A stretch of 64,000 bases of DNA from an uncultured Bacilli bacterium (GTDB taxonomy: Bacteria; Bacillota_I; Bacilli_A; RF39; UBA660). A program made the translations under genes and the position numbers. This document shows, in pieces, positions 12,508 through 52,933 of this stretch; the stretch's first letter is position 1; each line of letters opens with the position of its first letter. The notes below the pieces were generated by a model. The model searched no databases, was not told the origin of the DNA, and was given only the letters and a program-made list of their open reading frames with translations. Where the stretch lies: contig CANRCV010000003.1 in the NCBI GenBank assembly GCA_947629205.1, forward strand, positions 1,303 to 65,302, given 5' to 3'.

Positions 12508-14337
12508 ATGCAAGCAATTATGTTAGCAGCTGGAATGGGGAAAAGACTAGGAAAATATACAAAAGATAATACAAAATGTATGTTAGAAATTAATGGCAAA
12601 ACATTAATTGAAAGAGCAATTGAAGCTCTAATTGACTCCGGGGGGGGGGTTACAAAGTTAATAATTGTTACTGGATATAAAGGAGAAAATTTAAAAAAAT
12701 TTTTATTAGAAGAATGTAAAAATGAAAAAATAAAACAACTACCTTTGGAATTTATTGATAATCCAGAATATAATAAAACTAATAATATATATTCTTTGTA
12801 TTTAGCAAAAGAAGCATTAGAAAAAGATGATACAATTCTTTTAGAATCTGATTTAATCTATGATGGAAAACTTATTAAAAAGTTAATAGAATCTCCTGAG
12901 AAAAATTTGGTTTCTGTTGCTAAATATAAACAATGGATGGATGGAACCGTTATTAAAGTTGATGATCAACAAAATGTAATTGAATTTATTGAAAAGAAAA
13001 ATTTTAATTATGAAGAAATAGAAAATTATTATAAAACGGTTAATATTTATAAATTAAGTAAAGAATTTTCCCATCAAGTTTTTATTCCTTTTTTAAAAAG
13101 TTATATTCAAGCCTATGGTAATAATGAGTACTATGAATTAGTATTAAAAATTATTGCCCATTTATCCCGTAGTCAATTAAAAGCATTGGATGTATCAAAC
13201 ATTCTTTGGTATGAGATAGATGATGCACAAGATTATGATATTGCTACTTGTATGTTTTCAAGCGGTAAAGAAAAACTAGAAAATTTTCAAAAACGATATG
13301 GTGGTTACTGGAGATTTGAAAATATATTAGATTATTGCTATTTAGTAAATCCTTATTATCCACCAAAACAATTAATGGAGAAAATAAATTATTTTTCCAA
13401 CAATTTAATTACACAATATCCTTCTGGTCAAAAAATTGAATGTATTAATGCAAGTCGTTTATTTAATGTAGATGAAAATTATTTATGTGTTGGGAATGGA
13501 GCTGCTGAATTAATTAATATTTTAGGAAATATTTTAAAAGGAAAAATGTATGTTCCAAAAACAGCATTTAATGAATATATTCGTTGTTTTAAAAATAATG
13601 AATTTACTTTATTTGATATGGAAAAAAATAATTTTCAATATGATTTACAAGATATTAAGAAAAATATCTCTTTGAATGAGATTATTTGTTTAGTAAATCC
13701 TGATAATCCTTCCGGAACATTTTTATCTTTTGAAGAAATAATTTCTATTTTAGAACAATGTAAAAAAGAAAATAAAATAGTTATTTTTGATGAATCATTT
13801 ATTGATTTTGTTAATCCAAATAAAAGATATACTTTATTACAAAATGAAATTTTAGAAAAATATCAAAATTTAATTGTAATTAAAAGTATTAGTAAATCTT
13901 ATGGCATTCCTGGTTTAAGATTAGGTATTTTGGCAACAAGCAATCTATCATTAATGGAAGAAATAAAAAGAAATATTTCGATATGGAATATTAATTCTTA
14001 TGGAGAATATTTCTTACAAATTGCTAATCTTTATAGCAAAGAATATATAAAATCTTGTGATAAAATTGCTATAGAAAGAGATCGCTTTATGGAAGAGTTA
14101 TCTAAAATTAATGGTGTAATTGTTTATCCATCTGAAGCAAATTATGTTTTGTGTAAATTAAAAAATTATAACTCAACAAAATTAGCCATTCAATTGTTAG
14201 ATCAAAATATTTTTATTAAAGATTTAAGAACAAAAAATGCATTTAATGATAAAGATTACATTCGACTTGCCATTAGAACAAAAGAAGAAAATGATGTTTT
14301 GGTTCGTGAAATCAAAAAATCTTTAAAGGGTGAGTAG
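12508..14337 (+). CDS. bifunctional LicC-like nucleotidyltransferase (N-term) / class I-II PLP-dependent aminotransferase or decarboxylase (HisC/CobD-like, C-term); contains an in-frame G10 tract
   Basis: N-terminal MQAIMLAAGMGKRLG matches the NTP-transferase G-rich loop. The C-terminal half has the PLP-lysine context SKSYGIPGLRLGIL. The tract at 12640-12649 encodes GGG. Confidence 0.7.
   Translation: MQAIMLAAGMGKRLGKYTKDNTKCMLEINGKTLIERAIEALIDSGGGVTKLIIVTGYKGENLKKFLLEECKNEKIKQLPLEFIDNPEYNKTNNIYSLYLAKEALEKDDTILLESDLIYDGKLIKKLIESPEKNLVSVAKYKQWMDGTVIKVDDQQNVIEFIEKKNFNYEEIENYYKTVNIYKLSKEFSHQVFIPFLKSYIQAYGNNEYYELVLKIIAHLSRSQLKALDVSNILWYEIDDAQDYDIATCMFSSGKEKLENFQKRYGGYWRFENILDYCYLVNPYYPPKQLMEKINYFSNNLITQYPSGQKIECINASRLFNVDENYLCVGNGAAELINILGNILKGKMYVPKTAFNEYIRCFKNNEFTLFDMEKNNFQYDLQDIKKNISLNEIICLVNPDNPSGTFLSFEEIISILEQCKKENKIVIFDESFIDFVNPNKRYTLLQNEILEKYQNLIVIKSISKSYGIPGLRLGILATSNLSLMEEIKRNISIWNINSYGEYFLQIANLYSKEYIKSCDKIAIERDRFMEELSKINGVIVYPSEANYVLCKLKNYNSTKLAIQLLDQNIFIKDLRTKNAFNDKDYIRLAIRTKEENDVLVREIKKSLKGE
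12640..12649 (+). repeat. homopolymeric G10 tract (simple sequence repeat) inside the nucleotidyltransferase domain coding region
   Basis: Counted directly: ...gactccGGGGGGGGGGttacaaag, translated DSGGGVTK, in frame. Confidence 0.9.
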
Positions 14338-23701: not shown

Positions 23702-23718
23702 AATAATAGGTGATTTCA

Positions 23719-25041
23719 ATGAAAAGAAAAATATATCAAGAATTATTGAATTGGAAAGAAGGAAAAATAGAGAATAAACCTTTGATGCTTTTAGGAGTAA
23801 GGCAATGTGGTAAAACTTATATTATTGAAGAATTTTGTAAAAATGAATTTAAATATGCTAAGACGATCAATTTGTTAAGTGATACAAATGTTATAGAATT
23901 ATATCGAAGTAATCTTACATCTGATGAAAAATATGTTCAATTGAAATTAATCATTAATTTTGATTTGGATAAAGAAGATTCTGTTCTTTTTATTGATGAA
24001 ATTCAAGAATGCGAAGAATTAATTGCTGAATTAAAATATTTTTGTGAAAAGCATAATAATGTTCACATTATTTGTGCTGGTTCTTTACTAGGAGTGAAAT
24101 TAAATCGCCTGAAATCATCTTTTCCCGTTGGAAAAGTGTGGATACAATATTTATATCCAATGGATTTCGAAGAATTTTTAATGGCATATAAACAAGAAAA
24201 TTTAATTGATTATATTAAAGAATGTTTTAATAAAAATAAGGCATTAAGTGAACCTTTACATCAAAAACTAATAATGCTTTATAGAACCTATTTAATTACT
24301 GGAGGAATGCCAGAGAGCATTAAAAATATGATAATCAATGAAGATGATTATATAAAATATAATAAAAATATTTTACAAAGTATTTTAATTGCTTATATAA
24401 ATGATATGCAAAAACATGTTTTAAATGAACAAGAATCTTTTAAAATAGAAGCTATTTATAAGTCACTTCCTTCTCAATTAATGAATATTTCAAAAAAATT
24501 TCAATATTCAAATGTTTCAAAAAATGCAAGAGCAAGAGATTATGAAACAGCTATTCATTGGTTAGAAAATAGTAATTTAGTTATTAAATGTAGAAATATA
24601 CGATTACCTGAAATTCCTTTGGAAGGCTTTGCTGAAGAAGATGTATTTAAACTCTATTTAAGTGATGTAGGGGTTCTTAATAAATTATTGATAATCAAAA
24701 TGGAAGATATTTTAACGAATAAAAATTTTATATACAAAGGAATTATTGCGGAAAACTTTGTTGCCAATCAATTAGTTGCTAATAATATTCCACTATATTA
24801 TTGGAAAAATGGGGATGGTACTGCAGAGGTAGATTTTTTAATTGATACAAAAGATGGTATAATTCCCATTGAGGTAAAAGCTTCCAATAATACGCAATCC
24901 AAAAGTTTAAAAGTATATATGGATAAATACAAACCAAAATATGCAATAAGAATAAGTAGCAAAAATTTTGGTTATAATGAAAAAACCAATGTTAAATCTA
25001 TTCCACTTTATGCTACATTTTTAATTAAAGAAATTGTATAG
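23719..25041 (+). CDS. AAA+ ATPase of the AAA_14/DUF4143 family, paralog of 21051-22361
   Basis: Track ORF starts at GTG 23710. The ATG at 23719 aligns with the paralog start MKRKIY. Same Walker A/B motifs. About 55% identity to the first copy by eye. Confidence 0.7.
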   Translation: MKRKIYQELLNWKEGKIENKPLMLLGVRQCGKTYIIEEFCKNEFKYAKTINLLSDTNVIELYRSNLTSDEKYVQLKLIINFDLDKEDSVLFIDEIQECEELIAELKYFCEKHNNVHIICAGSLLGVKLNRLKSSFPVGKVWIQYLYPMDFEEFLMAYKQENLIDYIKECFNKNKALSEPLHQKLIMLYRTYLITGGMPESIKNMIINEDDYIKYNKNILQSILIAYINDMQKHVLNEQESFKIEAIYKSLPSQLMNISKKFQYSNVSKNARARDYETAIHWLENSNLVIKCRNIRLPEIPLEGFAEEDVFKLYLSDVGVLNKLLIIKMEDILTNKNFIYKGIIAENFVANQLVANNIPLYYWKNGDGTAEVDFLIDTKDGIIPIEVKASNNTQSKSLKVYMDKYKPKYAIRISSKNFGYNEKTNVKSIPLYATFLIKEIV

Positions 25042-34601: not shown

Positions 34602-35862
34602 CTAATAATTCATGTAAATAAATTTATTTGCTGTAAAAACTCCAAATAAAATAATAAAAACGATGTATATAAAAATTCTAATACAGTATTTTTGTTTTGT
34701 ATAATCTTCTTTATTTTTTATTTCAATAATGAATTGAAATAAAATTAAAATGAATAATGTAATAGCCATAGCAATACTAGCATTATCTCCAGTAAAAGGA
34801 ATTACACAATTTACTAAGCTATTATAATTGATTACAAAATTTGATAACATATGTTTTAAATAATTAATTCCAGCACTAAAGCTCTCTAAACGAAAAAATA
34901 TCCATCCAATAGTTATTTCTATAAAAGTTAAGATTTTGTAAAAAAATGATTTTAATTTATTATGTGATGGGGGGGGGGGTTAAATTATTTAAAATTCCAT
35001 GATACAATCCCCAAAATATGTATCCACTACCATTTCCATGCCAAAATCCACTAACTAAAAAAGTAATTATAGAATTTAACCATTTTCTAAATTTTCCTTT
35101 TCGATTTCCTCCTAAAGGAATGTAAATATAATCTTTTAGCCAACTAGATAAAGAAATGTGCCAGCGTCCCCAAAATTCTTTAATGCTTTTAGAAAAATAA
35201 GGACGATTAAAATTTCTTTCAACCTCTATACCAAGAAGATTAGATATACCTATAGACATATTAGAATATCCAGAAAAATCACTATATATTTGAATGCTAT
35301 AAAGTATAGCAGCAATAAATAAAGCTAAACCTGTATAAGATGTATAATTTTGAAAAACTGTATTGACATATACAGCAGTACGATTTGCAATTACAAATTT
35401 TAAAAATAAACCAGCAATAATTAATTGTATACCTTTTAACCATTTATCTTTTTTAAAAGTAAAAGTGTTATCTAATTGTTCAATAATTGTTTTTCCTCTA
35501 GAAATTGGTCCGGAAATAATTTCAGGAAAATAAGTCACATAAATAAAATAATTTATAAAATTTTGTTTAAATGAAATTTTATGTTTATAGTTATCTATTA
35601 AATAACTTATAATTTTAAAGGAATAAAAAGATAAACCTAAGGGCAATATTTTAATAAATGATTTATAAAATATCCAAATGAAAACCGTAAAAATAGTTCC
35701 TAATAGAGTAAAAATTTTATTATTCTTTTTAGTGCATAAAAAAGTTATGCATACTAAAAGAATTAAAATTGGCAAAGATTTAAAATCAATTAAGCAGTAA
35801 AAAAGTAAATTGATTAATAAAAGAATCATTTTACGCATTTGTATGTTATTTGGTTTTGTCAT
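34602..35862 (-). CDS. MBOAT-family membrane-bound O-acyltransferase (DltB/AlgI/PatA-like), reading frame interrupted at a C11 tract (phase-OFF as sequenced)
   Basis: Conserved-His region WGRWHISLSSWLKDYIYIPLGG...VSGFWHG. ORF 34960-35862 ends ...LTPPPIT* just after the tract. Hand translation of the -1 frame is stop-free from the tract into ORF 34602-34850. Confidence 0.7.
34969..34979 (-). repeat. homopolymeric C11 tract (G11 on + strand) inside the MBOAT gene
   Basis: tgtgatGGGGGGGGGGGttaaatt counted directly. Confidence 0.9.
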
Positions 35863-39882: not shown

Positions 39883-40896
39883 ATGAAACAAGAAGAATCA
39901 AATAAAATAACGAATCTTAATTTTATATTAACAATACTAATTGTTTTTATGCACTCAAGCTGCTTAAGTTATAGTAGTACAATTCAAAATGAATTTGTTG
40001 GAATAATATATAATTTCATATATGGTATTCTAAATATAGCAGTTCCTACTTTTTTTGCATTATCAACAATTTTATTTTTTCGCAATTTTGATATGTCAAA
40101 ATATAGATTTAAGATAAAAAGTAGAATTAAATCATTAGTGTTGCCTTATTTATTTTGGAGTACTGTTTTTCTTGTTTATTACATAATAATTACTCATATT
40201 CCTTGGGTTAGTAGTATGGATACTACAATGGAACCAATAAAATATAATTTATTTTCTATACTATATTATATTTTATTTGCAAAATATGCGGGTGCCCTTT
40301 GGTATATTAGAGAACTTTTTATATTATTTTTAATTTCACCAATAATATATAGTCTGGTAATTAAATTAAAAAGTAAAAATTGGATTTTAATTCTTTTTGT
40401 TATTACAATGAATTTAATTTTTAAGCCATCCTATTTTACTTTTATTTATTGGCTCCCATTATACTATATGTTTGCTTATCTAGTGATTAGCAAGAAAAAA
40501 ATAAATATAAATTTAAATGTTCTTAAATTTCTATTAATTTCGGGGGGGGGGCTATTCTTAATAATACTTAATGAATATTCAGGATTTTATATGCACTTTA
40601 TATTTAGATTATATATACCATTCTTTATATTATATTTAGTTTCAAAAAGTAAATTATTAGAAAAGAATCCTAAATCTTTTATGAAAAATAATTTTATTAT
40701 ATATTGTACTCATTTTCAATTATCGGTTGTAATTAAAAGATTACTTATGATTATTTTTGGAACTAATGAATGGTTACTTTTAGTATATCAGTTGGTAACG
40801 TGTTTTATGGTAGTGTGTATAATTAATATATTTATTAAATTAGGAAAAAAGATATGCCCGAAATTTATAATGTTTATATCTGGTGGTAGAGTTTAA
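39883..40896 (+). CDS. acyltransferase family 3 membrane O-acyltransferase; contains an in-frame G10 tract
   Basis: 10-TM protein with N-terminal TILIVFMHSS pattern. The tract at 40542-40551 encodes ISGGGLF. Confidence 0.65.
   Translation: MKQEESNKITNLNFILTILIVFMHSSCLSYSSTIQNEFVGIIYNFIYGILNIAVPTFFALSTILFFRNFDMSKYRFKIKSRIKSLVLPYLFWSTVFLVYYIIITHIPWVSSMDTTMEPIKYNLFSILYYILFAKYAGALWYIRELFILFLISPIIYSLVIKLKSKNWILILFVITMNLIFKPSYFTFIYWLPLYYMFAYLVISKKKININLNVLKFLLISGGGLFLIILNEYSGFYMHFIFRLYIPFFILYLVSKSKLLEKNPKSFMKNNFIIYCTHFQLSVVIKRLLMIIFGTNEWLLLVYQLVTCFMVVCIINIFIKLGKKICPKFIMFISGGRV
40542..40551 (+). repeat. homopolymeric G10 tract in the acyltransferase-3 gene
   Basis: atttcGGGGGGGGGGctattc counted directly. 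In frame. Confidence 0.9.
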
Positions 40897-40920: not shown

Positions 40921-41940
40921 ATGAAAAAAGAAATTCCTATTATGTTTTGTTTTGATAAAAATTATGTGATTCCTGCAGCTGCTTGTTTTATATCTATAAT
41001 GGAACATGCAAATTCTAAAAATAACTATCATTTTTATGTTTTGCACTCTGATATATCAAAAGATCAACAAGATAAATTACACTTGGATATGAGAAAATTT
41101 TCAAATTGTAAATTGGAATTTATAGATATGAATAACAAATTTAAAACTGAATTTAAAAATGTTGAGAATAAAGCCCATTTTTCGAAAGAAGTATTATATA
41201 AATTAATTTGTGGTTCTATTTTTCCGAATATTAATAAACTAATTATTACAGATGTAGATGTAATCTTTTTAGATGATATTGCTAAAATTTATGATGAATT
41301 ATCAGAAAATGATTCATATTATTTTGCTGGTATTCCCCCTATTAAAACCAAACCATATATTTATAAAGATAAACCTAGTTATAAAAAATTTGATGAGACT
41401 GAATTGGCAATATTAGAAAATGGTATAGGTGGAGGTTTTTTATTAGCTAATTTAAAAAAAATTCGTGATGATAATTTTGAAGAAAAATTAGTAAATTACC
41501 TTATACAAAATGCAAATAAACTAATACAAATGGAACAAGATGTTATAAATGTCGTTGGGGGGGGGGTACATGGTATAAAACATTTACCATATTATTACAT
41601 GGTATGTAGTTATCATTATAATGATTTTAATGATTCAGAGGCATATAAAAAATTAATTTATCATGACGAAAAAGATGTTAAATATGCTTTAGAACATCCA
41701 GTACAGTTACATTATGCTACTTGTGATAAACCTTGGACTTATGTTGATTGTGCTAAAAGTGAAATATGGTTTCAGTATATCGTTAAATCAGTTTTTTTAA
41801 GAGATTTTTTAGAAGAATTACCAAGTAAAATAAAAACCGTAAATGACTTTTTACAAACCATGAGAAAGAAGCATAAAAAGTTATATAATTTTTTATTAAA
41901 AATATATCATTTAATTAAAAAGATACTTTTTATTAAATAA
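40921..41940 (+). CDS. GT8-family glycosyltransferase (LgtC/RfaJ-like retaining hexosyltransferase); contains an in-frame G10 tract
   Basis: IPIMFCFDKNYVIPAAACFISI and the DxD region LIITDVDVIFLDD. The tract at 41557-41566 encodes VVGGGVHG. Confidence 0.7.
   Translation: MKKEIPIMFCFDKNYVIPAAACFISIMEHANSKNNYHFYVLHSDISKDQQDKLHLDMRKFSNCKLEFIDMNNKFKTEFKNVENKAHFSKEVLYKLICGSIFPNINKLIITDVDVIFLDDIAKIYDELSENDSYYFAGIPPIKTKPYIYKDKPSYKKFDETELAILENGIGGGFLLANLKKIRDDNFEEKLVNYLIQNANKLIQMEQDVINVVGGGVHGIKHLPYYYMVCSYHYNDFNDSEAYKKLIYHDEKDVKYALEHPVQLHYATCDKPWTYVDCAKSEIWFQYIVKSVFLRDFLEELPSKIKTVNDFLQTMRKKHKKLYNFLLKIYHLIKKILFIK
41557..41566 (+). repeat. homopolymeric G10 tract in the GT8 gene
   Basis: gtcgttGGGGGGGGGGtacatgg counted directly. 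Confidence 0.9.
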
Positions 41941-43508: not shown

Positions 43509-44618
43509 ATGAAAGAAAAAACAAATAGAAATTCAAATGTTGAAATATTAAGAATAATTAGTATGCTATTAATTATTGCTCATCATTATTCATACTATGG
43601 TTTTAAAGATTTGGGTATAGTTTATACTTTTAACAAGTATTTAGTAAGTTTTATTGGTTTTGGTGGAAAATTGGGAACTCTTATTTTTGTACTTATTTCT
43701 GGTTATTATATGTGCGATTCTAAATTTTCAATTAAAAAATTAATTAAATTAATTGGAGAAGTTTGGTTTTATTTAACTGGTATTGGTCTTTTATTGCTTT
43801 TTGTTTTTCCAACAAATATTCCTATAGATTTTCATACAATACTTAAAATTTTTATTCCTTTATTATATCAACAAAATTGGTTTATTACTGACTACATATT
43901 ATTAATGATAATATCTCCTTTATTGAATATAATTATTCAACAAATTAATAAAGAATTTTATAAAAAGATTTTGTTTGTTGGAGTTCTAATATGTTCAATA
44001 ATTCCAAGTCTTTTTTATGCAGATTTAAATATAAATAGTATATTATGGTTTATAGTATTGTATTTTATTTCTGGATATTTGAAAAAGCATATTCAATTGA
44101 ATCAAAATAGTAAAAAAAATTTTTTATTATCATTTCTATTTTTAATAATACTATTTACCCTTAAAGTAGGAAATGTATTTTTAGGAAATTATTTACATAT
44201 GCCTATATTAATTAATAATAGTATATATTTTAATTCTTTAATTAGTCCATTGACGTTGCTTGTAGGTTTAGAGTTATTAATTGCGTTCTTAAAATTAAAA
44301 CCTTTTTCTAACAAAATTGTAAATGAAATTGCTAGTACAACATTAGGAATTTATCTTATTCATGATCATTTTTTAATGAGAAATTTCTTATGGGGGGGGG
44401 GTATATTTAATAATAAAATATACTTTAATTCCAATTTATTAATTATCCATGCTATGATTTGCATAAGTATAGTATATATTATTTGTGCCATTATTGATTT
44501 AATACGTCAAAAAACAATAGAAAAAATTTATTTGAAAATAGTAGATAAATTTATATTATTTTATCAAAAGAAAAATTTAAATAAATTTTGGAGTTATGTT
44601 TATAAAATTATTAATTAA
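43509..44618 (+). CDS. acyltransferase family 3 membrane O-acyltransferase, paralog A; contains an in-frame G10 tract
   Basis: ILRIISMLLIIAHHY...ASTTLGIYLIHDHF...LWGGGIF. Close paralog of 47885-49006. Confidence 0.65.
   Translation: MKEKTNRNSNVEILRIISMLLIIAHHYSYYGFKDLGIVYTFNKYLVSFIGFGGKLGTLIFVLISGYYMCDSKFSIKKLIKLIGEVWFYLTGIGLLLLFVFPTNIPIDFHTILKIFIPLLYQQNWFITDYILLMIISPLLNIIIQQINKEFYKKILFVGVLICSIIPSLFYADLNINSILWFIVLYFISGYLKKHIQLNQNSKKNFLLSFLFLIILFTLKVGNVFLGNYLHMPILINNSIYFNSLISPLTLLVGLELLIAFLKLKPFSNKIVNEIASTTLGIYLIHDHFLMRNFLWGGGIFNNKIYFNSNLLIIHAMICISIVYIICAIIDLIRQKTIEKIYLKIVDKFILFYQKKNLNKFWSYVYKIIN
44392..44401 (+). repeat. homopolymeric G10 tract in acyltransferase-3 paralog A
   Basis: cttatGGGGGGGGGGtatattt counted directly, translated LWGGGI. 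Confidence 0.9.
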
Positions 44619-45697: not shown

Positions 45698-46819
45698 ATG
45701 AAAAAAAATAGCAAATTATTATTGTCCATTATTTGTCCTATTTATAATGGTGAAAAAGTTGTTGGAAATTTAATTGAATCTTTAGAAAATCAAGAATACA
45801 AAGACTATGAATTGATATTGATAAATGATGGATCAGAAGATAATACATGGGATGTCATTCAAAATTATGCCAAACAATATAGTAACATTGTTTTAATAAA
45901 TAAAAAAAATACGGGCGTTGGAGATACTAGAAACGAAGGACTAAAAATTGCCAAAGGAAAATATATTGCATTTGCTGATGCAGATGATACTTATACAATA
46001 GATTTTTTTGAAAAAATAATTCCAGAAATTAAAAAGGAAGATTTTGAAATGCTTGTTTTTAATGCAAATGTAATGAATCACGAAAAGTATTTATATGCTG
46101 AAATTTCTGAAAAATATTCTAGTGGTTCTTTTATTGAAAAACATGGAGTAGAAAAATATTTACAAGGTGAATTTTGTTATAGAATTGGAAATGTGCCTTG
46201 GAATAAAATATACTTATCTAAAATTATAAAAGAAAATAATATTTGGTTTGAAAAAGACAAAAAAACAGGAGAAGATTTGATATTTAATATTTGCTATGTA
46301 TCTAAAATTGAAAAATATAAATATTTAAATATTAAACTTTACAATTATATGCTAAATATGATTGTAAATAAAAATAGAAATTATTTTGAAAACTGTTTAG
46401 AAGAAAATTTAAAATATTATGAATTATTAGAAAAAATATGTAAAACTGAAAATATAAAAACGCAATATTTATCTTTATTTTTTCTAAGGAGATTTCCAGG
46501 TATTGTACAAAATGAAGTTAATAATAAAGATTACTATCAAGGTAAACTAAATATAAAAAAATACTTATGCAATGAAAAAATGAAAAAAGTTTTTACTAAT
46601 ATAAATTTACGAAATATAGATTTAAAATTATTTATTTGTTATCTATTTTATAAATTAAAAATTTATAATTTTTACTATTGTATAAAATGGAAAATAGCTC
46701 ATAAAATTGATCGGGGGGGGGGCTATAGACTAGATTTTAATTTCCTTAATACTGAAATAAATAATATTCAATATTTTTTTAAAAAGACTTTAATACCTAT
46801 ATACTTTTTGAAAGAATAA
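45698..46819 (+). CDS. GT2-family glycosyltransferase, paralog 1; contains an in-frame G10 tract near the C-terminus
   Basis: LSIICPIYNGEKVV...NDGSEDNT GT2 signature. The tract at 46713-46722 encodes DRGGGYRL. Confidence 0.7.
   Translation: MKKNSKLLLSIICPIYNGEKVVGNLIESLENQEYKDYELILINDGSEDNTWDVIQNYAKQYSNIVLINKKNTGVGDTRNEGLKIAKGKYIAFADADDTYTIDFFEKIIPEIKKEDFEMLVFNANVMNHEKYLYAEISEKYSSGSFIEKHGVEKYLQGEFCYRIGNVPWNKIYLSKIIKENNIWFEKDKKTGEDLIFNICYVSKIEKYKYLNIKLYNYMLNMIVNKNRNYFENCLEENLKYYELLEKICKTENIKTQYLSLFFLRRFPGIVQNEVNNKDYYQGKLNIKKYLCNEKMKKVFTNINLRNIDLKLFICYLFYKLKIYNFYYCIKWKIAHKIDRGGGYRLDFNFLNTEINNIQYFFKKTLIPIYFLKE
46713..46722 (+). repeat. homopolymeric G10 tract in GT2 paralog 1
   Basis: attgatcGGGGGGGGGGctataga counted directly. 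Confidence 0.9.
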
Positions 46820-46855: not shown

Positions 46856-47881
46856 ATGAAAAAAAATAGTGAAATATTATTATCCATTATTTGCCCAATT
46901 TATAATGGTGAAAAGGTAGTTGGGAATTTAATAGAGTCTTTAGAAAATCAAGAATACAAAGACTATGAATTAGTATTAGTAAATGATGGCTCAGAAGATA
47001 ATACATTAAAAGTATTGAATGAATATTCTAAAAAATATCCTAATATTATAGTTGTTGATAAACCACATACTGGATTATGTGATACTCGAAATGTAGGTGT
47101 TGAGCATTCACATGGAAAATATCTTACCATAGGAGATTGTGATGATTATTATAGTGCAGATTTTTTTGAAAAAATAATTCCAATAATCCAAGAAGGAGGA
47201 TTTGAATTATTAATCTTTAATGCGTATGTAATGAATTATGATAAATTTATGCACTATTTAATTCCAGATAAATATAAAAGTGGTTATTTTGAAGAAAAAA
47301 ATGGTGTTTATAAGTATTTAAGAGGGCAATTTGGACATCAAATTGCTAATAATACATGGAATAAAATATATCCTAGAGAAATTATAGATAAATATAAATT
47401 TAAATATTCAGTTGAAAATCATGGGGAAGATTTGTTATATCATATTCTATATACATCTAAAATAACCAAATATAGATATTTTAATGAAAAACTGTATTAT
47501 TATCAGTTAAATATGAATCCATTAACAACAAGCAGTTATCGTGAAAATGAAGTTAAGGATGTGCTTGACTATTATGAACCAATTAAAAAAATTTGTGTGA
47601 ATAGTCAACTTGAAAAGTGGGAGGAATATTTAAGTTTATTTTTCTTAAGAAGATTACCAATTATCGTTTTAAATGAAACAAATTGTAACGATTATAACAA
47701 GGGAAAAGAAAACATAGAATCATTTTTAAACAATAAAATAATTTTATCTTTGTTTAAAAAAATTAAGTTTAAGTATTTTGATTTTAAATTATTTATCAGT
47801 TTTTTATTATATAAATTAAAATTATACAAATTAGTCTATATTGTATTATGGAAGAAAAGACATAAAAAGAGGAATCATTAA
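46856..47881 (+). CDS. GT2-family glycosyltransferase, paralog 2 (5' ~150 nt nearly identical to paralog 1, 3' part divergent, no G tract)
   Basis: Same N-terminal 50 aa as 45698 with only conservative changes. The protein ends before the region that carries the tract in paralog 1. Confidence 0.7.
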   Translation: MKKNSEILLSIICPIYNGEKVVGNLIESLENQEYKDYELVLVNDGSEDNTLKVLNEYSKKYPNIIVVDKPHTGLCDTRNVGVEHSHGKYLTIGDCDDYYSADFFEKIIPIIQEGGFELLIFNAYVMNYDKFMHYLIPDKYKSGYFEEKNGVYKYLRGQFGHQIANNTWNKIYPREIIDKYKFKYSVENHGEDLLYHILYTSKITKYRYFNEKLYYYQLNMNPLTTSSYRENEVKDVLDYYEPIKKICVNSQLEKWEEYLSLFFLRRLPIIVLNETNCNDYNKGKENIESFLNNKIILSLFKKIKFKYFDFKLFISFLLYKLKLYKLVYIVLWKKRHKKRNH

Positions 47882-47884
47882 AAA

Positions 47885-49006
47885 ATGAGTACTACTGAAA
47901 AAAAGCGTAATTCAAATTTAGAATTATTAAGAATTATTAGTATAATTTTAATTATTGCTCACCACTATGCTGGGCATGGTTTTGTTATTGAAAATATGCC
48001 ATATTCGTTCAATCAATATTTAATTGGTTTTTTAGTATTAGGTGGGAAATTAGGAGTCGTTTGTTTTATTTTAATTTCTGGATTTTTTATGTGTGAAACA
48101 AAATTTTCTATTAAAAAATTAATTAAATTAATAGGTGAGGCATGGTTTTATTTACTTGTAATAGGAATATTATTTAATACAATTTTAACCCCAACTATTC
48201 CTATTGATTTTACAGTAATATTAAAATCAACCATTCCAATTATATATGATCAAAATTGGTTTATAACAGATTATATAATGCTAATGATAATTTCACCAGT
48301 ATTAAATATTATCATTAAAAATATTAGCAAAGAATCATATCAAAAAATGCTTATCATAGGATTTATTTTATATTCAGTTTTACCTATATTCATTTTTGCA
48401 AGTCTTAATAATACAAGTTTTGTTGGGTTTATTTATTTATATTTTGTAGCAGGGTATATGAGAAAATTTTTACAAGTTCAAAATTCTCCTAAAAGATATT
48501 TTTTAAAAGCTTCGATAATTAATTTTATGGTTATATTATCAAGTATTTTGTTTATATTTTTAGGTCATAAATTCAATTTAACTATTTTTATAGTTAATAA
48601 TGCCTATTTTAGTTCTTTAAATAGTCCATTTACTTTGTTAATAGGAATTGAACTATTTATATTCTTCTTAAAATTAAAACCCTTTACAAGTAAAATTATT
48701 AATAAAATTGCTAGTACAACTTTAGGAATTTATTTAATTCATGATAATTTTTTACTACGTCCATACTTGTGGGGGGGGGGTATATTAAATAATTTAAATT
48801 ATGTTAATTCTCCATTTTTATTTTTACATGCTATTATTTCAATAATAGGAGTATTTATTGTATGTGTTATTATTGATCTAATTAGACAAGAAACAGTAGA
48901 AAAGGTTTATTTGAAAATTGTAGATAAATTAATTTTATTTTATCAAAAAAAGAATTTAAATATATATAAAAAAATTTGGTATTATATTAGTAAAATAATA
49001 GATTAA
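47885..49006 (+). CDS. acyltransferase family 3 membrane O-acyltransferase, paralog B; contains an in-frame G10 tract
   Basis: Collinear with 43509-44618, including the LWGGGIL tract context and the ...IDLIRQETVEKVYLKIVDKLILFYQKKNLN tail. Confidence 0.65.
   Translation: MSTTEKKRNSNLELLRIISIILIIAHHYAGHGFVIENMPYSFNQYLIGFLVLGGKLGVVCFILISGFFMCETKFSIKKLIKLIGEAWFYLLVIGILFNTILTPTIPIDFTVILKSTIPIIYDQNWFITDYIMLMIISPVLNIIIKNISKESYQKMLIIGFILYSVLPIFIFASLNNTSFVGFIYLYFVAGYMRKFLQVQNSPKRYFLKASIINFMVILSSILFIFLGHKFNLTIFIVNNAYFSSLNSPFTLLIGIELFIFFLKLKPFTSKIINKIASTTLGIYLIHDNFLLRPYLWGGGILNNLNYVNSPFLFLHAIISIIGVFIVCVIIDLIRQETVEKVYLKIVDKLILFYQKKNLNIYKKIWYYISKIID
48771..48780 (+). repeat. homopolymeric G10 tract in acyltransferase-3 paralog B
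   Basis: acttgtGGGGGGGGGGtatatta counted directly. Confidence 0.9.
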
Positions 49007-49179: not shown

Positions 49180-50142
49180 ATGAAATTTGAACCTATTTTA
49201 AGCGTAATTATAATCTCATATAAACAAGAAAAATATATTCGAGAAGCCATAGAAAGCGTTTTGAGCCAAAAAACAGAATACAAATATGAATTACTTTTAG
49301 CTGATGATTGTTCGCCAGATAAAACGCTGGAAATTATGGAAGAATATGCAACAAAGTATCCCAAAATAATTAAACTTTTAAAAAGAGAAAAAAATTTAGG
49401 AGCTAATAATAATTTATTAGATGCATATTCAAAATGTAAAGGTAAATATGTTACCTTTTTAGAAGGTGATGATTATTGGTGCGATAAAAATAAAATCCAA
49501 AAACAAATTGATTTTTTAGAAAAACACACAGAATATATTGGAGTTTCGCATACTCAAGAAGGAAGAAAAAACAATGTTGTAGTAGGGTATTTTCCTAAAA
49601 AATTAAATGAAGATATGATTATTGATGGATTAGATGATTTAATTAAAAATGAAAAGACTTTTTCATTTTCATCTACTATTCATAAAAACTTATATTTAAA
49701 TGAAAAATGGAAAAAAGATATTATTTATTTACATAGCTTGGATAGTACTATTAGTGATTCTCAAATGTGCGATTACTTATGTTTTATTGGTAAAATATAT
49801 GTGATGAATGAGGGAATGATGGTATATAGAATTAGAAATAATGATGGAAATTCAAATTTTAATTCAAGTCATAAAATAAATGAAATTCAATTACGATATT
49901 TAAAAATATATTTAGAAGAAGAAAAATTTTATAATGAAAAATATAGTTTTTATAACAAAATAAAAGAACGATATACTTTAGGAATTGTTTATAATTTATT
50001 ACATGGAAATTTTAAAGAAATAAAGGACTTTAAAAGATTATGCCCTAAAAAATATCGTTTAAGAATAAATTTAGTTTTTCCAATTACTTGTTGTAAAATT
50101 TTATGGAGAAGATTTATTAAAAATCGAGGTGAAAAAAAATGA
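49180..50142 (+). CDS. GT2-family glycosyltransferase
   Basis: LSVIIISYKQEKYI...LLADDCSPDKT...EGDDYW. Confidence 0.75.
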   Translation: MKFEPILSVIIISYKQEKYIREAIESVLSQKTEYKYELLLADDCSPDKTLEIMEEYATKYPKIIKLLKREKNLGANNNLLDAYSKCKGKYVTFLEGDDYWCDKNKIQKQIDFLEKHTEYIGVSHTQEGRKNNVVVGYFPKKLNEDMIIDGLDDLIKNEKTFSFSSTIHKNLYLNEKWKKDIIYLHSLDSTISDSQMCDYLCFIGKIYVMNEGMMVYRIRNNDGNSNFNSSHKINEIQLRYLKIYLEEEKFYNEKYSFYNKIKERYTLGIVYNLLHGNFKEIKDFKRLCPKKYRLRINLVFPITCCKILWRRFIKNRGEKK

Positions 50143-50852
50143 AATTAGGAATTATGCAGCCATATTTTTTCCCATACATTGGTTATTGGCAATTAATTAA
50201 TGCAGTTGACAAATATATTATATATGATGATGTTAACTATATTAAAGGGGGATGGATTAATCGTAATCGTATTTTAGTCAATGGGAATCCAAGTTATTTT
50301 TCTTTACAATTAGATGGAGCTAGTCCAAATAAAAAAATTAATGAGATTAAATTAAATAGTAATGCAGTGTGGAAGAAAAAATTAATAAATTCTTTGCAGA
50401 TGAGTTATAGTAAAGCACCTTTTTATAATGAAGTATTTCCCATAATACAAGATATTATATTATATTCAGAAAATAATTTAGCAAAATATTTAGAAAATTC
50501 ATTAAGAAAATTATGTGCGTTTTTAGATATTAATACTGAAATTATTGTTTCTTCTACTTTACAAAAAAATAATGACTTAAAAGGCAAAGATAAAGTTATA
50601 CATATTTGTGAAATTTTAGATGCTAAAGAATACATAAATGCAATTGGTGGTCAAGATATGTATGATAGTAAAACATTTTTGGAACATGGAATAAAATTAA
50701 GTTTTATTGAAACAAATATTATTCCATATACTCAATTTAAAAATGACTTTGTACCCTATTTATCTATAATTGATTTATTAATGTTTAATGGAAAAGAAAA
50801 GGTAAAAGAATATTTAAATGATTATAAATTAATAAAAAATAGTAAGGAGTAA
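50139..50852 (+). CDS. WbqC-like family protein (O-antigen/amino-sugar pathway accessory protein)
   Basis: N-terminus MKLGIMQPYFFPYIGYWQLI matches the WbqC-like family consensus start. Confidence 0.65.
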   Translation: MKLGIMQPYFFPYIGYWQLINAVDKYIIYDDVNYIKGGWINRNRILVNGNPSYFSLQLDGASPNKKINEIKLNSNAVWKKKLINSLQMSYSKAPFYNEVFPIIQDIILYSENNLAKYLENSLRKLCAFLDINTEIIVSSTLQKNNDLKGKDKVIHICEILDAKEYINAIGGQDMYDSKTFLEHGIKLSFIETNIIPYTQFKNDFVPYLSIIDLLMFNGKEKVKEYLNDYKLIKNSKE

Positions 50853-50853
50853 A

Positions 50854-51830
50854 ATGAAAGAAATTGGTGGATTTTTAGAATTAGATCTTTATAAAGATAG
50901 AAATAAAAAATTTAAAAATAATTTATTATTATTTAATAGTTGTCGTAATGCATTGGCTTATATAATTAAAGTAAAGAATATAAAAAAAATGGCTGTGCCC
51001 TATTATTTGTGTGATTCAATTGTAAATTTATTACAAAAAAATAATATAGATATAACTTTCTATCATATTAAAATGGATTTTACTCCTGAGAATAATATTA
51101 AATTAAGAACTGGTGAATATCTTTTTGTAGTAAATTACTATGGTCAATTAACGAAAAAAATGCAAGGCAAATTAAAATCACAATATAAAAATATAATTTT
51201 AGATAATACGCAAGCTTTTTTTGATAAGCCTTTAAAAAATGTTGATACTCTTTATTCTTTTCGTAAATTTTTTGGAGTCCCCGACGGGGGGGGGTATCTA
51301 CGAATGATGCAAGTTACTATAATCAATTAAAGGTTGATAAATCTAATAATCGTATGTCAGCTTTACTTGGCAGATTTGAAGAAAATGCAGCAGCTTTTTA
51401 TACAGTTTTTCAAAATTTAGAAGAAAATTTTGAGAATATGCCTATGTTAAAAATGTCAAAGTTAACTAATAATCTTTTAAATGCAATTGATTTTTGTAAA
51501 GTAAGAACTATTAGAACTAAAAATTTTAACTTTTTATATAAAAATTTAAAGAATAAAAATATTTTGAAATTAAAAAAAGTTAAAGGTGCTTATATGTACC
51601 CATTATATTTAGAAGATGCTGTAGAATTAAAAAAATTTTTATTAGAAAATAAAATATATATTCCTATTTTATGGCCTAATGTTTTAAATATAGTTTCAAA
51701 AGATTCTATTGAATATAAATATGTGCATAATATTTTACCTTTACCTTGTGATCAAAGATATAGTAAAACAGATATGAAATACATTTGTGATAAAATAATT
51801 GAATTTGAAAAAAGGACAAGAAAGAAGTGA
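50854..51830 (+). CDS. DegT-like (fold-type I PLP enzyme-like) sugar-modifying protein, split into two ORFs at a G9 tract (phase-OFF as sequenced)
   Basis: ORFs 50854-51330 and 51354-51830. NSCRNALAYII...VPYYLCDS resembles the DegT N-terminal block. Hand translation shows the +1 frame after the tract runs stop-free into the second ORF. Confidence 0.4.
51286..51294 (+). repeat. homopolymeric G9 tract separating the two halves of the DegT-like gene
   Basis: ccccgacGGGGGGGGGtatcta counted directly. Confidence 0.9.
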
Positions 51831-52933
51831 TAATAATGTCAAAAATTTTAGTTACACAATCTTCTATGCCAAGTTATGAAGAATATTGTGAAGAAATAAA
51901 AGAATTATTTGATACAAAATGGTTAACGAACAACGGTAAAAAACATAATTTATTAGAAGAAAAATTATGTGATTATCTTGGTGTAAACAATATATCTTTA
52001 TTTTGTAATGGCCATATGGCTTTATATAGTGCTCTTAAATTTTTAAATTTAAAAGGTGAGGTTATTACAACTCCTTTTACATTTGCATCTACAACACATG
52101 CTATTGTAGAAAATGGACTTACTCCTGTTTTTTGTGATATTAATCAAGAAGATTACACAATAGATGCTAATAAAATTGAAGATTTAATTACTGATAAGAC
52201 TTGTGCTATTGTGGCAGTACATGTATATGGTAATCCATGTAATGTAGAAAAAATAGAAGACATTGCAAAAAAACATAACCTTAAAGTTATATATGATGCT
52301 GCTCATGCTTTTGGAGTTAAATATAATGGTATACCTATTGCAAATTTTGGAGATATTTCCATGTTTAGTTTTCATGCTACAAAAGTTTATAATACAATAG
52401 AAGGTGGTGCTCTTGCTTATTCTAATAAAGAGTGGTATCAAAATTTTGGAGAGTTGAAAAATTTTGGTATTGTCGATGAAGAGCATGTTTCTAACATAGG
52501 AATAAATGCTAAAATGAATGAATTTCAAGCCGCTATGGGATTATGTAATTTAAGGCATATAAATGAAGAAATAGCAAAAAGAAAAAAAGTATATGAAAAA
52601 TATATAGAGTTATTAAAAGATGCGAAAGGTATCAAATTAAATATTTTAAAAGAAAATGTTGAAAAAAATTATGCATATTTTCCAATTATTATTGAAGATG
52701 AGTATGGTTTAACAAGAGATCAATTATATGAAAAACTAGCTGAAAATGACATATTTACCAGAAAATATTTTTATCCTTTAGTTAGTGATTACGATTGCTA
52801 TAATAAACAATATGATTCTACTTTAACACCTATTGCAAAGGATATTGCTAATAGAGTTTTAACTTTACCAATGTATGCTAATTTATCTTTAGAAGATGTA
52901 GAAAAAATATGTAATATAATTAAAAAACAATAG
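51827..52933 (+). CDS. DegT/DnrJ/EryC1/StrS-family sugar aminotransferase (PLP-dependent)
   Basis: 368 aa. NGHMALYSALKFL...GEVITTPFTFASTTHAI...FSFHATKVYNTIEGG, with the Lys in HATK. Confidence 0.85.
   Translation: MIIMSKILVTQSSMPSYEEYCEEIKELFDTKWLTNNGKKHNLLEEKLCDYLGVNNISLFCNGHMALYSALKFLNLKGEVITTPFTFASTTHAIVENGLTPVFCDINQEDYTIDANKIEDLITDKTCAIVAVHVYGNPCNVEKIEDIAKKHNLKVIYDAAHAFGVKYNGIPIANFGDISMFSFHATKVYNTIEGGALAYSNKEWYQNFGELKNFGIVDEEHVSNIGINAKMNEFQAAMGLCNLRHINEEIAKRKKVYEKYIELLKDAKGIKLNILKENVEKNYAYFPIIIEDEYGLTRDQLYEKLAENDIFTRKYFYPLVSDYDCYNKQYDSTLTPIAKDIANRVLTLPMYANLSLEDVEKICNIIKKQ

What the first reader, a model, noticed from the sequence alone, without database searches (positions are those of the whole stretch)
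50854..51830. DegT-like sugar-modifying gene split at a G9 tract; +1 G restores a ~320-aa ORF
ORFs 50854-51330 and 51354-51830 lie in different frames. Reading the +1 frame after the G9 run gives S-T-N-D-A-S-Y-Y-N-Q-L-K-V-D-K-S-N-N-R-M-S-A-L-L-G-R-F-E-E, which flows without a stop into the second ORF. The N-terminal half has a DegT-like block (NSCRNAL...VPYYLCDS). The gene sits in a WbqC / DegT aminotransferase / LicD amino-sugar sub-cluster. This is a second OFF-state switch, in the amino-sugar branch of the locus.
Basis: seen in the sequence. Interest (0 to 1): 0.6.

Follow-up and report, generated by a model that had tools for sequence, protein, structure and literature searches.

The report
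Poly-G frameshift silences sugar-modifying enzyme gene
A run of nine G's splits an otherwise intact gene for a sugar-aminotransferase-like enzyme in the cell-wall sugar locus of an uncultured gut bacterium; it is one of eight such G-runs in the locus and is most likely a reversible on/off switch caught in the off position.

Summary
A G9 run at 51286-51294 separates two 158-codon ORFs. G10 (or G7) gives a 325-aa (324-aa) protein that aligns end to end with more than 4,000 homologs of about 320 aa.

The fused protein matches no Pfam or NCBIfam model. Its AlphaFold model (pLDDT 88) matches only DegT-type sugar aminotransferases. The Schiff-base Lys and the PLP-binding Asp are invariant in the family.

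The family almost always sits beside a WbqC, ATP-grasp or FemAB-like gene, with a canonical DegT aminotransferase nearby. The same module occurs in E. coli O123, whose O-antigen carries an aminoacylated Qui4N. I therefore infer a role in aminoacyl decoration of an amino sugar.

The tract is one of eight G9-G11 runs in a 24.7%-GC window, where about 0.0015 are expected. All eight are in glycan genes and all are in frame at length 10. Six are ON and two are OFF (this gene and an MBOAT gene). Homologs have no tract at this site, and the downstream half shows no decay.

Switching itself is not shown. All three available assemblies read G9. One sister tract differs in another sample.

Verdict: a new member of a known kind (a poly-G contingency gene), in an uncultured gut Bacilli lineage.

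The parts
50854..51830 (+). Frameshifted gene 'X'. With G10 it encodes a 325-aa DegT-fold, PLP-enzyme-like protein of an unannotated family.
   Evidence: Fused translation. 4,230 homologs, the 120 listed are 313-330 aa and cover 95-100% of the query. Colinear alignment. AF2 pLDDT 88.4. Foldseek matches are DegT-type aminotransferases only. No Pfam or NCBIfam hit.
51286..51294 (+). G9 homopolymer tract and proposed slipped-strand switch. It starts at codon 145 in codon phase 0 and encodes the Gly residues of ...RK138FFGVPD-GGG..., the counterpart of the (E/D)GG motif that follows the catalytic Lys in DegT enzymes.
   Evidence: Homologs read GAT GGA GCA TAT here, with no tract.
50854..51330 (+). 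OFF-state product: a 158-aa N-terminal fragment ending ...PDGGGYLRMMQVTIIN*.
   Evidence: The same truncated peptide was called in two ENA metagenome contigs.
51354..51830 (+). Second ORF, which is the C-terminal half of X in the other frame. That frame is open from 51267. No convincing ribosome-binding site precedes the ATG at 51354 (my reading of the sequence).
   Evidence: It keeps 45 of 47 strongly conserved family columns.
50139..50852 (+). WbqC-family gene immediately upstream, the usual partner of X.
   Evidence: Pfam PF08889, E 7e-75. WbqC lies next to X in 9 of 15 contexts examined and also in E. coli O123/O186.
51827..52933 (+). Canonical DegT/DnrJ/EryC1/StrS aminotransferase; its best NCBIfam match is the DesI-type 4-aminotransferase model, below that model's cutoff. 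Its GTG start overlaps the stop codon of X (GTGA), which suggests translational coupling.
   Evidence: It is 61-78% identical to the DegT genes next to X in three other loci.
34969..34979 (-). Sister tract: C11 on the coding strand of an MBOAT gene (34960-35862). The gene is OFF, truncated at 300 aa. C10 gives 419 aa.
   Evidence: The same C11 is present in a second sample.
12640..12649 (+). Sister tract G10, in frame (ON), at codon 45 of a nucleotidyltransferase-aminotransferase fusion gene (12508-14337).
40542..40551 (+). Sister tract G10, ON, in an Acyl_transf_3 gene (39883-40896).
41557..41566 (+). Sister tract G10, ON, in a GT8 glycosyltransferase gene (40921-41940). In another sample this site is 4 nt shorter (G7 plus loss of a T) and the gene is split.
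44392..44401 (+). Sister tract G10, ON, in an Acyl_transf_3 gene (43509-44618).
46713..46722 (+). Sister tract G10, ON, near the 3' end (91% of the length) of a GT2 gene (45698-46819).
   Evidence: G10 also in sample ERZ27249148.
48771..48780 (+). Sister tract G10, ON, in an Acyl_transf_3 gene (47885-49006).
   Evidence: G10 also in sample ERZ27249148.

Best explanation
Gene X (50854-51830) is an intact gene that is out of frame by one base. It encodes a PLP-enzyme-like protein with the fold of DegT-type sugar aminotransferases. The protein belongs to a large unannotated family that works with WbqC (or with an ATP-grasp or FemAB-like enzyme) and a canonical NDP-sugar 4-aminotransferase. By inference from gene context, and from the E. 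coli O123 cluster whose O-antigen carries an N-acyl-D-alanyl-Qui4N, the family helps attach an amino-acid-derived acyl group to a 4-amino-4,6-dideoxyhexose of a surface polysaccharide.

In this uncultured gut Bacilli lineage, the Gly codons just after the catalytic lysine have become a poly-G tract. The tract is now G9, which ends translation after 158 codons (OFF). G10 gives the full 325-aa enzyme (ON).

Inferred, not shown: slipped-strand mispairing during replication changes the tract length reversibly and at high frequency. This would make the gene one of eight independent poly-G switches that vary the decoration of the cell-wall glycopolymer. The OFF state probably also lowers expression of the downstream aminotransferase, whose start codon overlaps the X stop codon.
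For: Shown:
- G9 and the frame arithmetic.
- Full-length colinearity with the family.
- Retention of 84 of 90 strongly conserved columns, including 45 of 47 downstream of the shift. This lies within the range of intact homologs, 0.87-1.0.
- DegT fold.
- K138 and D117 are invariant and align with the catalytic Lys186 and Asp157 of the adjacent DegT.
- Synteny in 15 contexts: WbqC in 9, ATP-grasp in 3, FemAB-like in 2, a GNAT directly downstream in 5.
- The E. coli O123/O186 cluster reads DegT-WbqC-X homolog-GNAT-MaoC, with the X homolog 35% identical at E 3e-59. The O123 antigen structure is cited in PMC7685785.
- There are eight G9-G11 runs against about 0.0015 expected, and no G runs of 6-8.
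- All eight lie in glycan-modifying genes, in all three codon phases, and all are in frame at length 10.
- The tract is absent from homologs, so it is derived in this lineage.
- A sister tract differs in length in another sample while 1,931 flanking bases are identical.
- Related MAGs carry G10 tracts in promoter-like motifs.
Against: - No length variant of this tract was seen. The window and two metagenome contigs all read G9. Pattern scans of GTDB genomes and JGI metagenomes found nothing.
- One of those contigs also carries a 38-nt deletion in the downstream half. If real, that would be decay.
- The profile score cannot tell a tract change from a one-base loss just 3' of the tract.
- The biochemical role rests on fold and gene context only. 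WbqC has no solved structural relative, and no family member has been characterised to my knowledge.
- The hhalign link to DegT is weak statistically (E 1.3e-3, probability 19%).
Confidence: 0.6

Rival explanations
1. X is a fixed or decaying pseudogene. The one-base loss happened at or next to the G tract, is not being reversed at a useful rate, and the gene is on its way out.
For: All three assemblies read G9. Contig L001 additionally lacks 38 nt of the downstream half. No G10 allele was found anywhere.
Against: The downstream 180 codons are free of stops (chance about 1.4e-8). They keep 45 of 47 strongly conserved residues, with only Y/F exchanges. The lesion sits in a tract class that is enriched more than 1000-fold in this locus, and six members of that class are in frame. 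The 38-nt deletion is in a 2x-coverage contig and could be an assembly artefact.
Confidence: 0.2
2. This is a homopolymer-length error in sequencing or assembly. The true tract is G10 and the gene is simply intact.
For: Poly-G runs are error-prone. Two of the three assemblies have only 1.5-2x coverage. The GT8 tract differs between assemblies by an odd 4-nt change that could itself be an error.
Against: Three separate assemblies agree on G9. The same assemblies report G10 and C11 consistently at the other tracts. Six G10 tracts in the same contig are in frame.
Confidence: 0.08
3. G9 is the native in-frame length (GGG GGG GGG TAT CTA = G-G-G-Y-L, resembling the family's G-A-Y-L). The real lesion is then a one-base loss just downstream of the tract, so the tract is not the cause.
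For: The OFF frame reads DGGGYL against the family consensus DGAYL. Repairs made just after TATCTA score 445.5-447.3 bits, against 444.6 for G10.
Against: The 1-3 bit difference is not meaningful. The G10 reading keeps the nearly invariant Thr150 (S-T), which the alternative loses. A priori, a G9 run is far more mutable than ordinary sequence. All seven other tracts are in frame at length 10. Even under this reading, G10 would still restore the frame.
Confidence: 0.07
4. The OFF state is leaky. RNA-polymerase slippage or ribosomal frameshifting on the G9 run yields some full-length protein without any DNA change.
For: Established knowledge only: long homopolymer runs can promote transcriptional slippage. 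Nothing in the data bears on it directly.
Against: No stimulatory structure was looked for or found. It does not explain why six sister tracts sit exactly in frame. It could coexist with DNA-level switching rather than replace it.
Confidence: 0.05

Closest known systems
Poly-G contingency genes of Campylobacter jejuni capsule, LOS and flagellin-glycosylation loci, and the similar Neisseria pgtA and Helicobacter canadensis homopolymer genes (PMC2193922, PMC2823697; the C. jejuni part is from my own knowledge)
   Same: Intragenic G9-G11 tracts in a low-GC genome. They cluster in surface-glycan modification genes (glycosyltransferases, O-acyltransferases, sugar-modifying enzymes). A one-base length change toggles the reading frame. 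Several independent switches sit in one locus.
   Different: The host is an uncultured Gram-positive-type gut Bacilli lineage: TsaD is 89% identical to a rabbit-gut MAG and 72% to Candidatus Ventrenecus. Two literature searches found no report of poly-G phase variation for such lineages. Switching is not demonstrated here. All eight tracts share the same ON length of 10.
DegT/DnrJ/EryC1/StrS sugar aminotransferases (Pfam PF01041; e.g. WlaRG 5u20, WecE 4piw, ArnB 1mdo, PseC 2fni)
   Same: Same fold: Foldseek E about 1e-12, TM 0.60-0.69. Same order of motifs, with an Asp in ..D-N-T-Q-A-F.. and a Lys followed six or seven residues later by (D/E)-G.
   Different: 10-17% identity. No Pfam or NCBIfam hit. 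About 45 residues shorter at the N-terminus, which instead carries an invariant M-K-E-I-G-G-Y motif. It always accompanies a canonical DegT rather than replacing it, so the reaction is probably not the primary sugar transamination.
The WbqC-containing O-antigen module of E. coli O123/O186 (DegT-WbqC-hypothetical-GNAT-MaoC). E. coli O121 is also relevant: per my own knowledge the name WbqC comes from its cluster, and its O antigen carries amide-linked N-acetyl-glycine (PMC7685785).
   Same: Same gene trio. The E. coli 'hypothetical protein' WP_001206706.1 is 35% identical to fused X over 317 aa. The O123 antigen contains Qui4N acylated with N-(3-hydroxybutanoyl)-D-alanine (reference title in PMC7685785), and O121 carries amide-linked N-acetyl-glycine (PMC7685785).
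   Different: The E. coli genes have no poly-G tract (my reading of DGGIL) and are not known to phase-vary. The window has no GNAT or MaoC next to the trio, so the final acyl group may differ. No enzyme of the module has been characterised to my knowledge.

Membership tests
Simple-sequence-repeat (homopolymer) phase-variable contingency gene | A hypermutable repeat lies inside the reading frame (or promoter), far longer than composition predicts. | tested here: met
   G9 at 51286-51294. Eight G runs of 9 or more against about 0.0015 expected, and none of length 6-8.
Simple-sequence-repeat (homopolymer) phase-variable contingency gene | A repeat-length change of one unit restores a full-length, evidently functional product. 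| tested here: met
   G10 gives 325 aa, 444.6 bits against the family profile. 84 of 90 conserved columns are kept and there are no further lesions.
Simple-sequence-repeat (homopolymer) phase-variable contingency gene | Tract-length polymorphism is observed at this locus within or between populations. | tested here: not met
   The window, L001 and L002 all read G9. Pattern scans of GTDB genomes and JGI metagenomes returned nothing. Sampling is tiny and reads could not be examined. A sister tract in the GT8 gene does differ in L096.
Simple-sequence-repeat (homopolymer) phase-variable contingency gene | Reversible, high-frequency switching of a phenotype. | not testable with these tools
   The organism is uncultured and no read data or isolates are available.
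DegT/DnrJ/EryC1/StrS aminotransferase family (Pfam PF01041) | A match to the family HMM above the gathering score. | tested here: not met
   No Pfam or NCBIfam family at E <= 0.1 for the fused protein. A PDB sequence search with the protein and with the family profile found nothing relevant.
DegT/DnrJ/EryC1/StrS aminotransferase family (Pfam PF01041) | The fold of the sugar aminotransferases. | tested here: met
   AF2 model with pLDDT 88.4 and pTM 0.87. The 50 Foldseek PDB matches listed are all sugar aminotransferases, best E 1.1e-12.
DegT/DnrJ/EryC1/StrS aminotransferase family (Pfam PF01041) | A Schiff-base lysine and a PLP-pyridine-binding aspartate at the canonical positions. | tested here: inconclusive
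   K138 and D117 are invariant in 40 sequences. hhalign pairs them with K186 and D157 of the DegT alignment, but only at E 1.3e-3 and probability 19%. No structural superposition of side chains was available.
DegT/DnrJ/EryC1/StrS aminotransferase family (Pfam PF01041) | PLP-dependent transamination (or dehydration) of an NDP-keto-sugar. | not testable with these tools
   This needs enzyme assays.
WbqC-associated amino-sugar acylation module (operational grouping, not a curated family) | X lies next to a WbqC, ATP-grasp or FemAB-like gene, with a canonical DegT aminotransferase nearby. | tested here: met
   The window has WbqC-X-DegT. 14 of 15 contexts have one of the three partner types next to X, as does E. 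coli O123/O186.

The most novel reading that the evidence does not exclude
An uncultured gut Bacilli lineage related to Candidatus Ventrenecus runs a Campylobacter-style poly-G phase-variation system. It would include eight intragenic G tracts with a common ON length of 10 in one cell-wall glycopolymer locus, plus G10 tracts in promoter-like spacers in related genomes. One of its switches would control an uncharacterised DegT-fold enzyme family that, together with the structurally orphan WbqC protein, installs amide-linked amino acids on 4-amino-4,6-dideoxyhexoses. No enzyme has been assigned to that step, to my knowledge.
Probability: 0.4. Interest if true: 0.6.

Novelty: new member of a known kind. 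Interest (0 to 1): 0.42.

Why it matters
Poly-G contingency loci are textbook for Campylobacter, Neisseria, Haemophilus and Helicobacter. My two literature searches found no report of them for the abundant but uncultured low-GC Bacilli of animal guts. If the switches are real, these commensals vary their cell-wall glycans stochastically, which bears on phage and antibody escape. Single-consensus MAG annotation would then miscall switched-off genes as pseudogenes.

Separately, the work links a large family now annotated as 'hypothetical protein' (more than 4,000 members, including one in the E. coli O123/O186 O-antigen cluster) to the DegT fold and to WbqC. That gives a concrete, testable candidate pair for the unassigned aminoacyl-transfer step in amino-acid-decorated O-antigens.

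Tried and rejected
- Pfam and NCBIfam scans of the fused protein gave no hit.
- PDB sequence searches with the single sequence and with the family profile gave only noise.
- An exact-pattern scan allowing G6-G15 tracts found nothing in GTDB representative genomes or in JGI metagenomes.
- A protein-based scan of JGI metagenomes gave only distant relatives at 30-43% identity, with no close allele.
- A literature search for WbqC returned nothing functional. A search for RF39 plus phase variation returned nothing relevant. An Aravind-lab paper on aaRS-like peptide ligases does not cover this module. PMC2168959, on the Qui4N pathway, is not held.
- I tried to localise the lesion by scoring alternative repairs against the family profile. 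The differences of 3 bits or less are uninformative.
- The simple sigma-70 scanner did not call the promoter-like motifs around the relatives' G10 tracts.
- E. coli O121 could not be reached by DNA similarity; only O123/O186-type clusters were found.
- Rejected: the G runs are not two-colour-chemistry poly-G artefacts. They are internal to a 65-kb contig, six are in frame encoding Gly-Gly-Gly, and they recur identically in other assemblies.

Full report
**1. The observation**

The window has a run of exactly nine G at 51286-51294. The ORF 50854-51330 (158 aa) enters the run. The ORF 51354-51830 (158 aa) lies in the frame reached by adding one base, and that frame is already open from 51267. 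With G10 the two parts fuse into a stop-free 325-aa protein. G7 gives 324 aa and G13 gives 326 aa. At 24.7% GC, a 180-codon frame stays open by chance with probability about 1.4e-8. The two halves are therefore one gene.

**2. A real, widespread but unannotated family**

The fused protein has no Pfam or NCBIfam match at E <= 0.1 and no PDB sequence match. It does find 4,230 homologs. The 120 listed are 313-330 aa long and cover 95-100% of the query, with the closest 58% identical. Most are called 'hypothetical protein' and a few carry UniRef names of the DegT type.

An alignment with 39 of them is colinear across the junction. The window protein keeps 84 of 90 columns that are at least 90% conserved among the homologs. 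That includes 45 of 47 columns downstream of the frameshift, where the only changes are Y/F exchanges. This fraction (0.93) lies within the range seen when intact homologs are scored the same way, 0.87-1.0. There is no sign of decay.

**3. Fold and catalytic residues**

An AlphaFold2 model built from that alignment is confident (pLDDT 88.4, pTM 0.87). The 50 Foldseek PDB matches listed are all DegT-type sugar aminotransferases, including WlaRG, WecE, ArnB, PseC, WbpE and DesV. E-values start at 1e-12, TM-scores are 0.60-0.69, and identity is 10-17%.

A profile-profile comparison with the DegT genes that neighbour X is colinear over 268 columns, although weak statistically (E 1.3e-3). It pairs the invariant D117 (IILDNTQAF) with the PLP-binding Asp (VIYDAAHAF). 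It pairs the invariant K138 (S-x-R-K-FFGVPDG) with the Schiff-base Lys (SFHATK-VYNTIEGG).

'DegT-like' is therefore right for fold and probably for cofactor chemistry, but the protein is not a sequence-level member of PF01041. The poly-G run encodes the glycines six to nine residues after K138, the counterpart of the (E/D)GG motif. Four homologs checked at the DNA level read GAT GGA GCA TAT or GAC GGG GCA TAT here, with no run. The tract is therefore a derived feature of this lineage.

**4. What the gene probably does (inference from context)**

I examined 15 genomic contexts of the family.
- The gene directly next to X is WbqC in nine, an ATP-grasp ligase in three and a FemAB-like/Acetyltransf_6 protein in two.
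- A GNAT acetyltransferase follows directly downstream in five.
- A canonical DegT aminotransferase is nearby in at least seven.
- The DegT genes next to X are 61-78% identical between this MAG, a Methanococcus maripaludis strain and Clostridium beijerinckii, so the module appears to move as a unit.

In E. coli O123/O186 the O-antigen cluster reads rfbB-rfbA-wzx-DegT-WbqC-'hypothetical protein'-GNAT-MaoC. That hypothetical protein is 35% identical to fused X (E 3e-59). [quoted passage not shown] The O121 antigen carries amide-linked N-acetylglycine (PMC7685785). That the name WbqC comes from the O121 cluster is my own knowledge.

ATP-grasp and FemAB-like enzymes are amide-bond formers. The best reading is that WbqC plus X act after the 4-aminotransferase to put an amino-acid-derived acyl group on the amino sugar. 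The exact reaction of X is unknown. A confident WbqC model (pLDDT 92) has no significant structural neighbour in the PDB.

**5. The tract in its setting**

The window comes from a 65.6-kb contig of an uncultured Bacilli MAG. Its TsaD is 89% identical to that of a rabbit-gut MAG and 72% to Candidatus Ventrenecus from chicken gut.

The window is a Gram-positive-type cell-wall glycopolymer locus. It encodes:
- an LCP protein with a PASTA domain;
- GT4 and TagF-like enzymes;
- LicD and an IspD-like cytidylyltransferase;
- many glycosyltransferases;
- three Acyl_transf_3 proteins and one MBOAT protein.

G-run lengths are 30 of length 4, four of length 5, none of lengths 6-8, one of length 9, six of length 10 and one of length 11. 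About 0.0015 runs of 9 or more are expected.

All eight long runs are G on the + strand, lie in glycan-modifying genes and occupy all three codon phases. Six G10 runs are in frame. The C11 run truncates the MBOAT gene at 300 aa, and C10 would give 419 aa. X is the only other gene out of frame. All eight genes are thus ON at length 10, with six ON and two OFF in this assembly. This is the anatomy of a poly-G phase-variation system.

**6. Evidence on variability**

Two ENA metagenome contigs from other assemblies carry the X region.
- L001 (ERZ27249360) is identical to the window up to a 38-nt deletion in ORF2, with two mismatches beyond it.
- L002 (ERZ27249148) has three SNPs.
- Both read G9.

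In ERZ27249148 the MBOAT tract is again C11 and two other tracts are G10.

In ERZ27249360 the GT8 tract region is 4 nt shorter (G7 and one T lost), which splits that gene into 217 and 113 aa. All other 1,931 bases are identical. This is either real tract instability or a low-coverage error.

Pattern and protein scans of GTDB genomes and JGI metagenomes found no further alleles. Length variation at the X tract itself is therefore not shown.

Related MAGs carry G10 or G8 runs in intergenic, promoter-like motifs (TTGAC[TA]-N3-G10-TAWWTGATA). This suggests the lineage uses such runs widely.

**7. Caveats**

- Scoring alternative repairs against a profile of the 39 homologs gives 444.6 bits for G10, 444.8 for G7 and 445.5-447.3 for a one-base insertion just 3' of the tract. 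Homology alone cannot say that the missing base is in the tract.
- The OFF frame reads DGGGYL, which resembles the family's DGAYL. The G10 frame keeps the nearly invariant Thr150.
- The prior mutability of a G9 run and the 'ON at 10' rule at the seven other tracts favour the tract as the site of the lesion.
- The 38-nt deletion in L001, if real, would mean decay in one population.
- A homopolymer miscall is unlikely, given three concordant assemblies and correct G10 and C11 calls elsewhere.

**8. Mechanism proposed**

Shown: the tract, the frames, the intact family member and the context.

Inferred:
- Slipped-strand mispairing changes G9 to G10 and back.
- G10 yields the full enzyme, and the aminoacylated amino sugar appears on the polymer.
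- G9 yields a 158-aa fragment that lacks the C-terminal domain.
- Ribosomes then stop about 500 nt before the DegT start, which overlaps the X stop codon (GTGA). This would remove translational coupling and lower DegT expression too.
- Leaky expression by transcriptional slippage cannot be excluded.

**9. Comparison and verdict**

The closest known systems are the poly-G contingency genes of Campylobacter, Neisseria and Helicobacter glycan loci (PMC2193922, PMC2823697). For the protein, the closest are the DegT sugar aminotransferases and the E. coli O123/O121 WbqC modules.

The finding is a new member of a known kind. Its interpretation is supported except that reversibility is unproven. Interest is moderate (0.42). 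It is raised by the lineage (uncultured gut Bacilli, for which I found no report of such switches) and by the functional lead for an unannotated enzyme family.

Noticed in passing
window 34960-35862 (minus strand), tract at 34969-34979: The MBOAT O-acyltransferase gene is truncated at 300 aa by a C11 run. C10 would extend it to 419 aa, a normal MBOAT length. This is the other OFF switch in the locus, and the same C11 is present in sample ERZ27249148 (L097).
   Followed up: partly
window 12640, 40542, 41557, 44392, 46713 and 48771 (G10 tracts): Six further G10 tracts are all in frame. They sit in a nucleotidyltransferase-aminotransferase fusion, three Acyl_transf_3 genes, a GT8 and a GT2. All eight tracts in the window are G on the + strand, even though one of the genes is on the minus strand. 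All eight are ON at length 10.
   Followed up: partly
L096:699-705 against window 41556-41566: In metagenome assembly ERZ27249360 the GT8 tract region is 4 nt shorter (GTCGT-G7 against GTCGTT-G10), which splits the gene into 217 and 113 aa. The other 1,931 bases are identical. This is either real tract instability or a 2x-coverage artefact.
   Followed up: partly
L016:4410, L016:9714, L015:5871, L014:4263, L017:68, L013:10694: Related uncultured Bacilli MAGs carry intergenic G10 (or G8) runs inside a recurring promoter-like motif, TTGAC[TA]-N3-G10-TAWWTGATA. In L013 the motif is TTGACT-N3-G8-TATTA-TATAAT. These look like promoter-spacer switches. The simple sigma-70 scanner did not call them, and several lie at contig ends.
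   Followed up: partly
L001:673-682, corresponding to about window 51419-51456: Contig L001 (2x coverage) lacks 38 nt of the downstream half of X relative to the window. The deletion is flanked by a short A/T-rich microhomology. It would be a second, non-reversible lesion if real, or an assembly shortcut if not.
   Followed up: no
window 50139-50852: A confident AlphaFold model of the WbqC protein (pLDDT 92) has no significant Foldseek match in the PDB (best E 0.23). The WbqC family appears structurally and functionally uncharacterised.
   Followed up: partly
L099:7712-8686 (E. coli NZ_CP027555.1, O123/O186 O-antigen cluster): The 'hypothetical protein' WP_001206706.1 between the WbqC and GNAT genes is a clear homolog of X (35% identity, E 3e-59). 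It is an annotation gap in a well-studied organism and a tractable system for testing the family's function.
   Followed up: partly
window 45698-46819 and 46856-47881: These are tandem paralogous GT2 genes, about 73% identical at the DNA level, with near-identical N-termini. Only the first carries a G10 tract, at 91% of its length, so a length change would swap only the C-terminal tail.
   Followed up: no
window 51827-52933; L081, L083, L085: The DegT aminotransferase next to X is 61-78% identical between this Bacilli MAG, a Methanococcus maripaludis strain and Clostridium beijerinckii. This suggests horizontal transfer of the whole module across domains.
   Followed up: no
window 21051-22361 and 23710-25041: Two AAA_14/DUF4143 ATPase genes sit in the middle of the glycan locus. 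Their role there is unknown.
   Followed up: no
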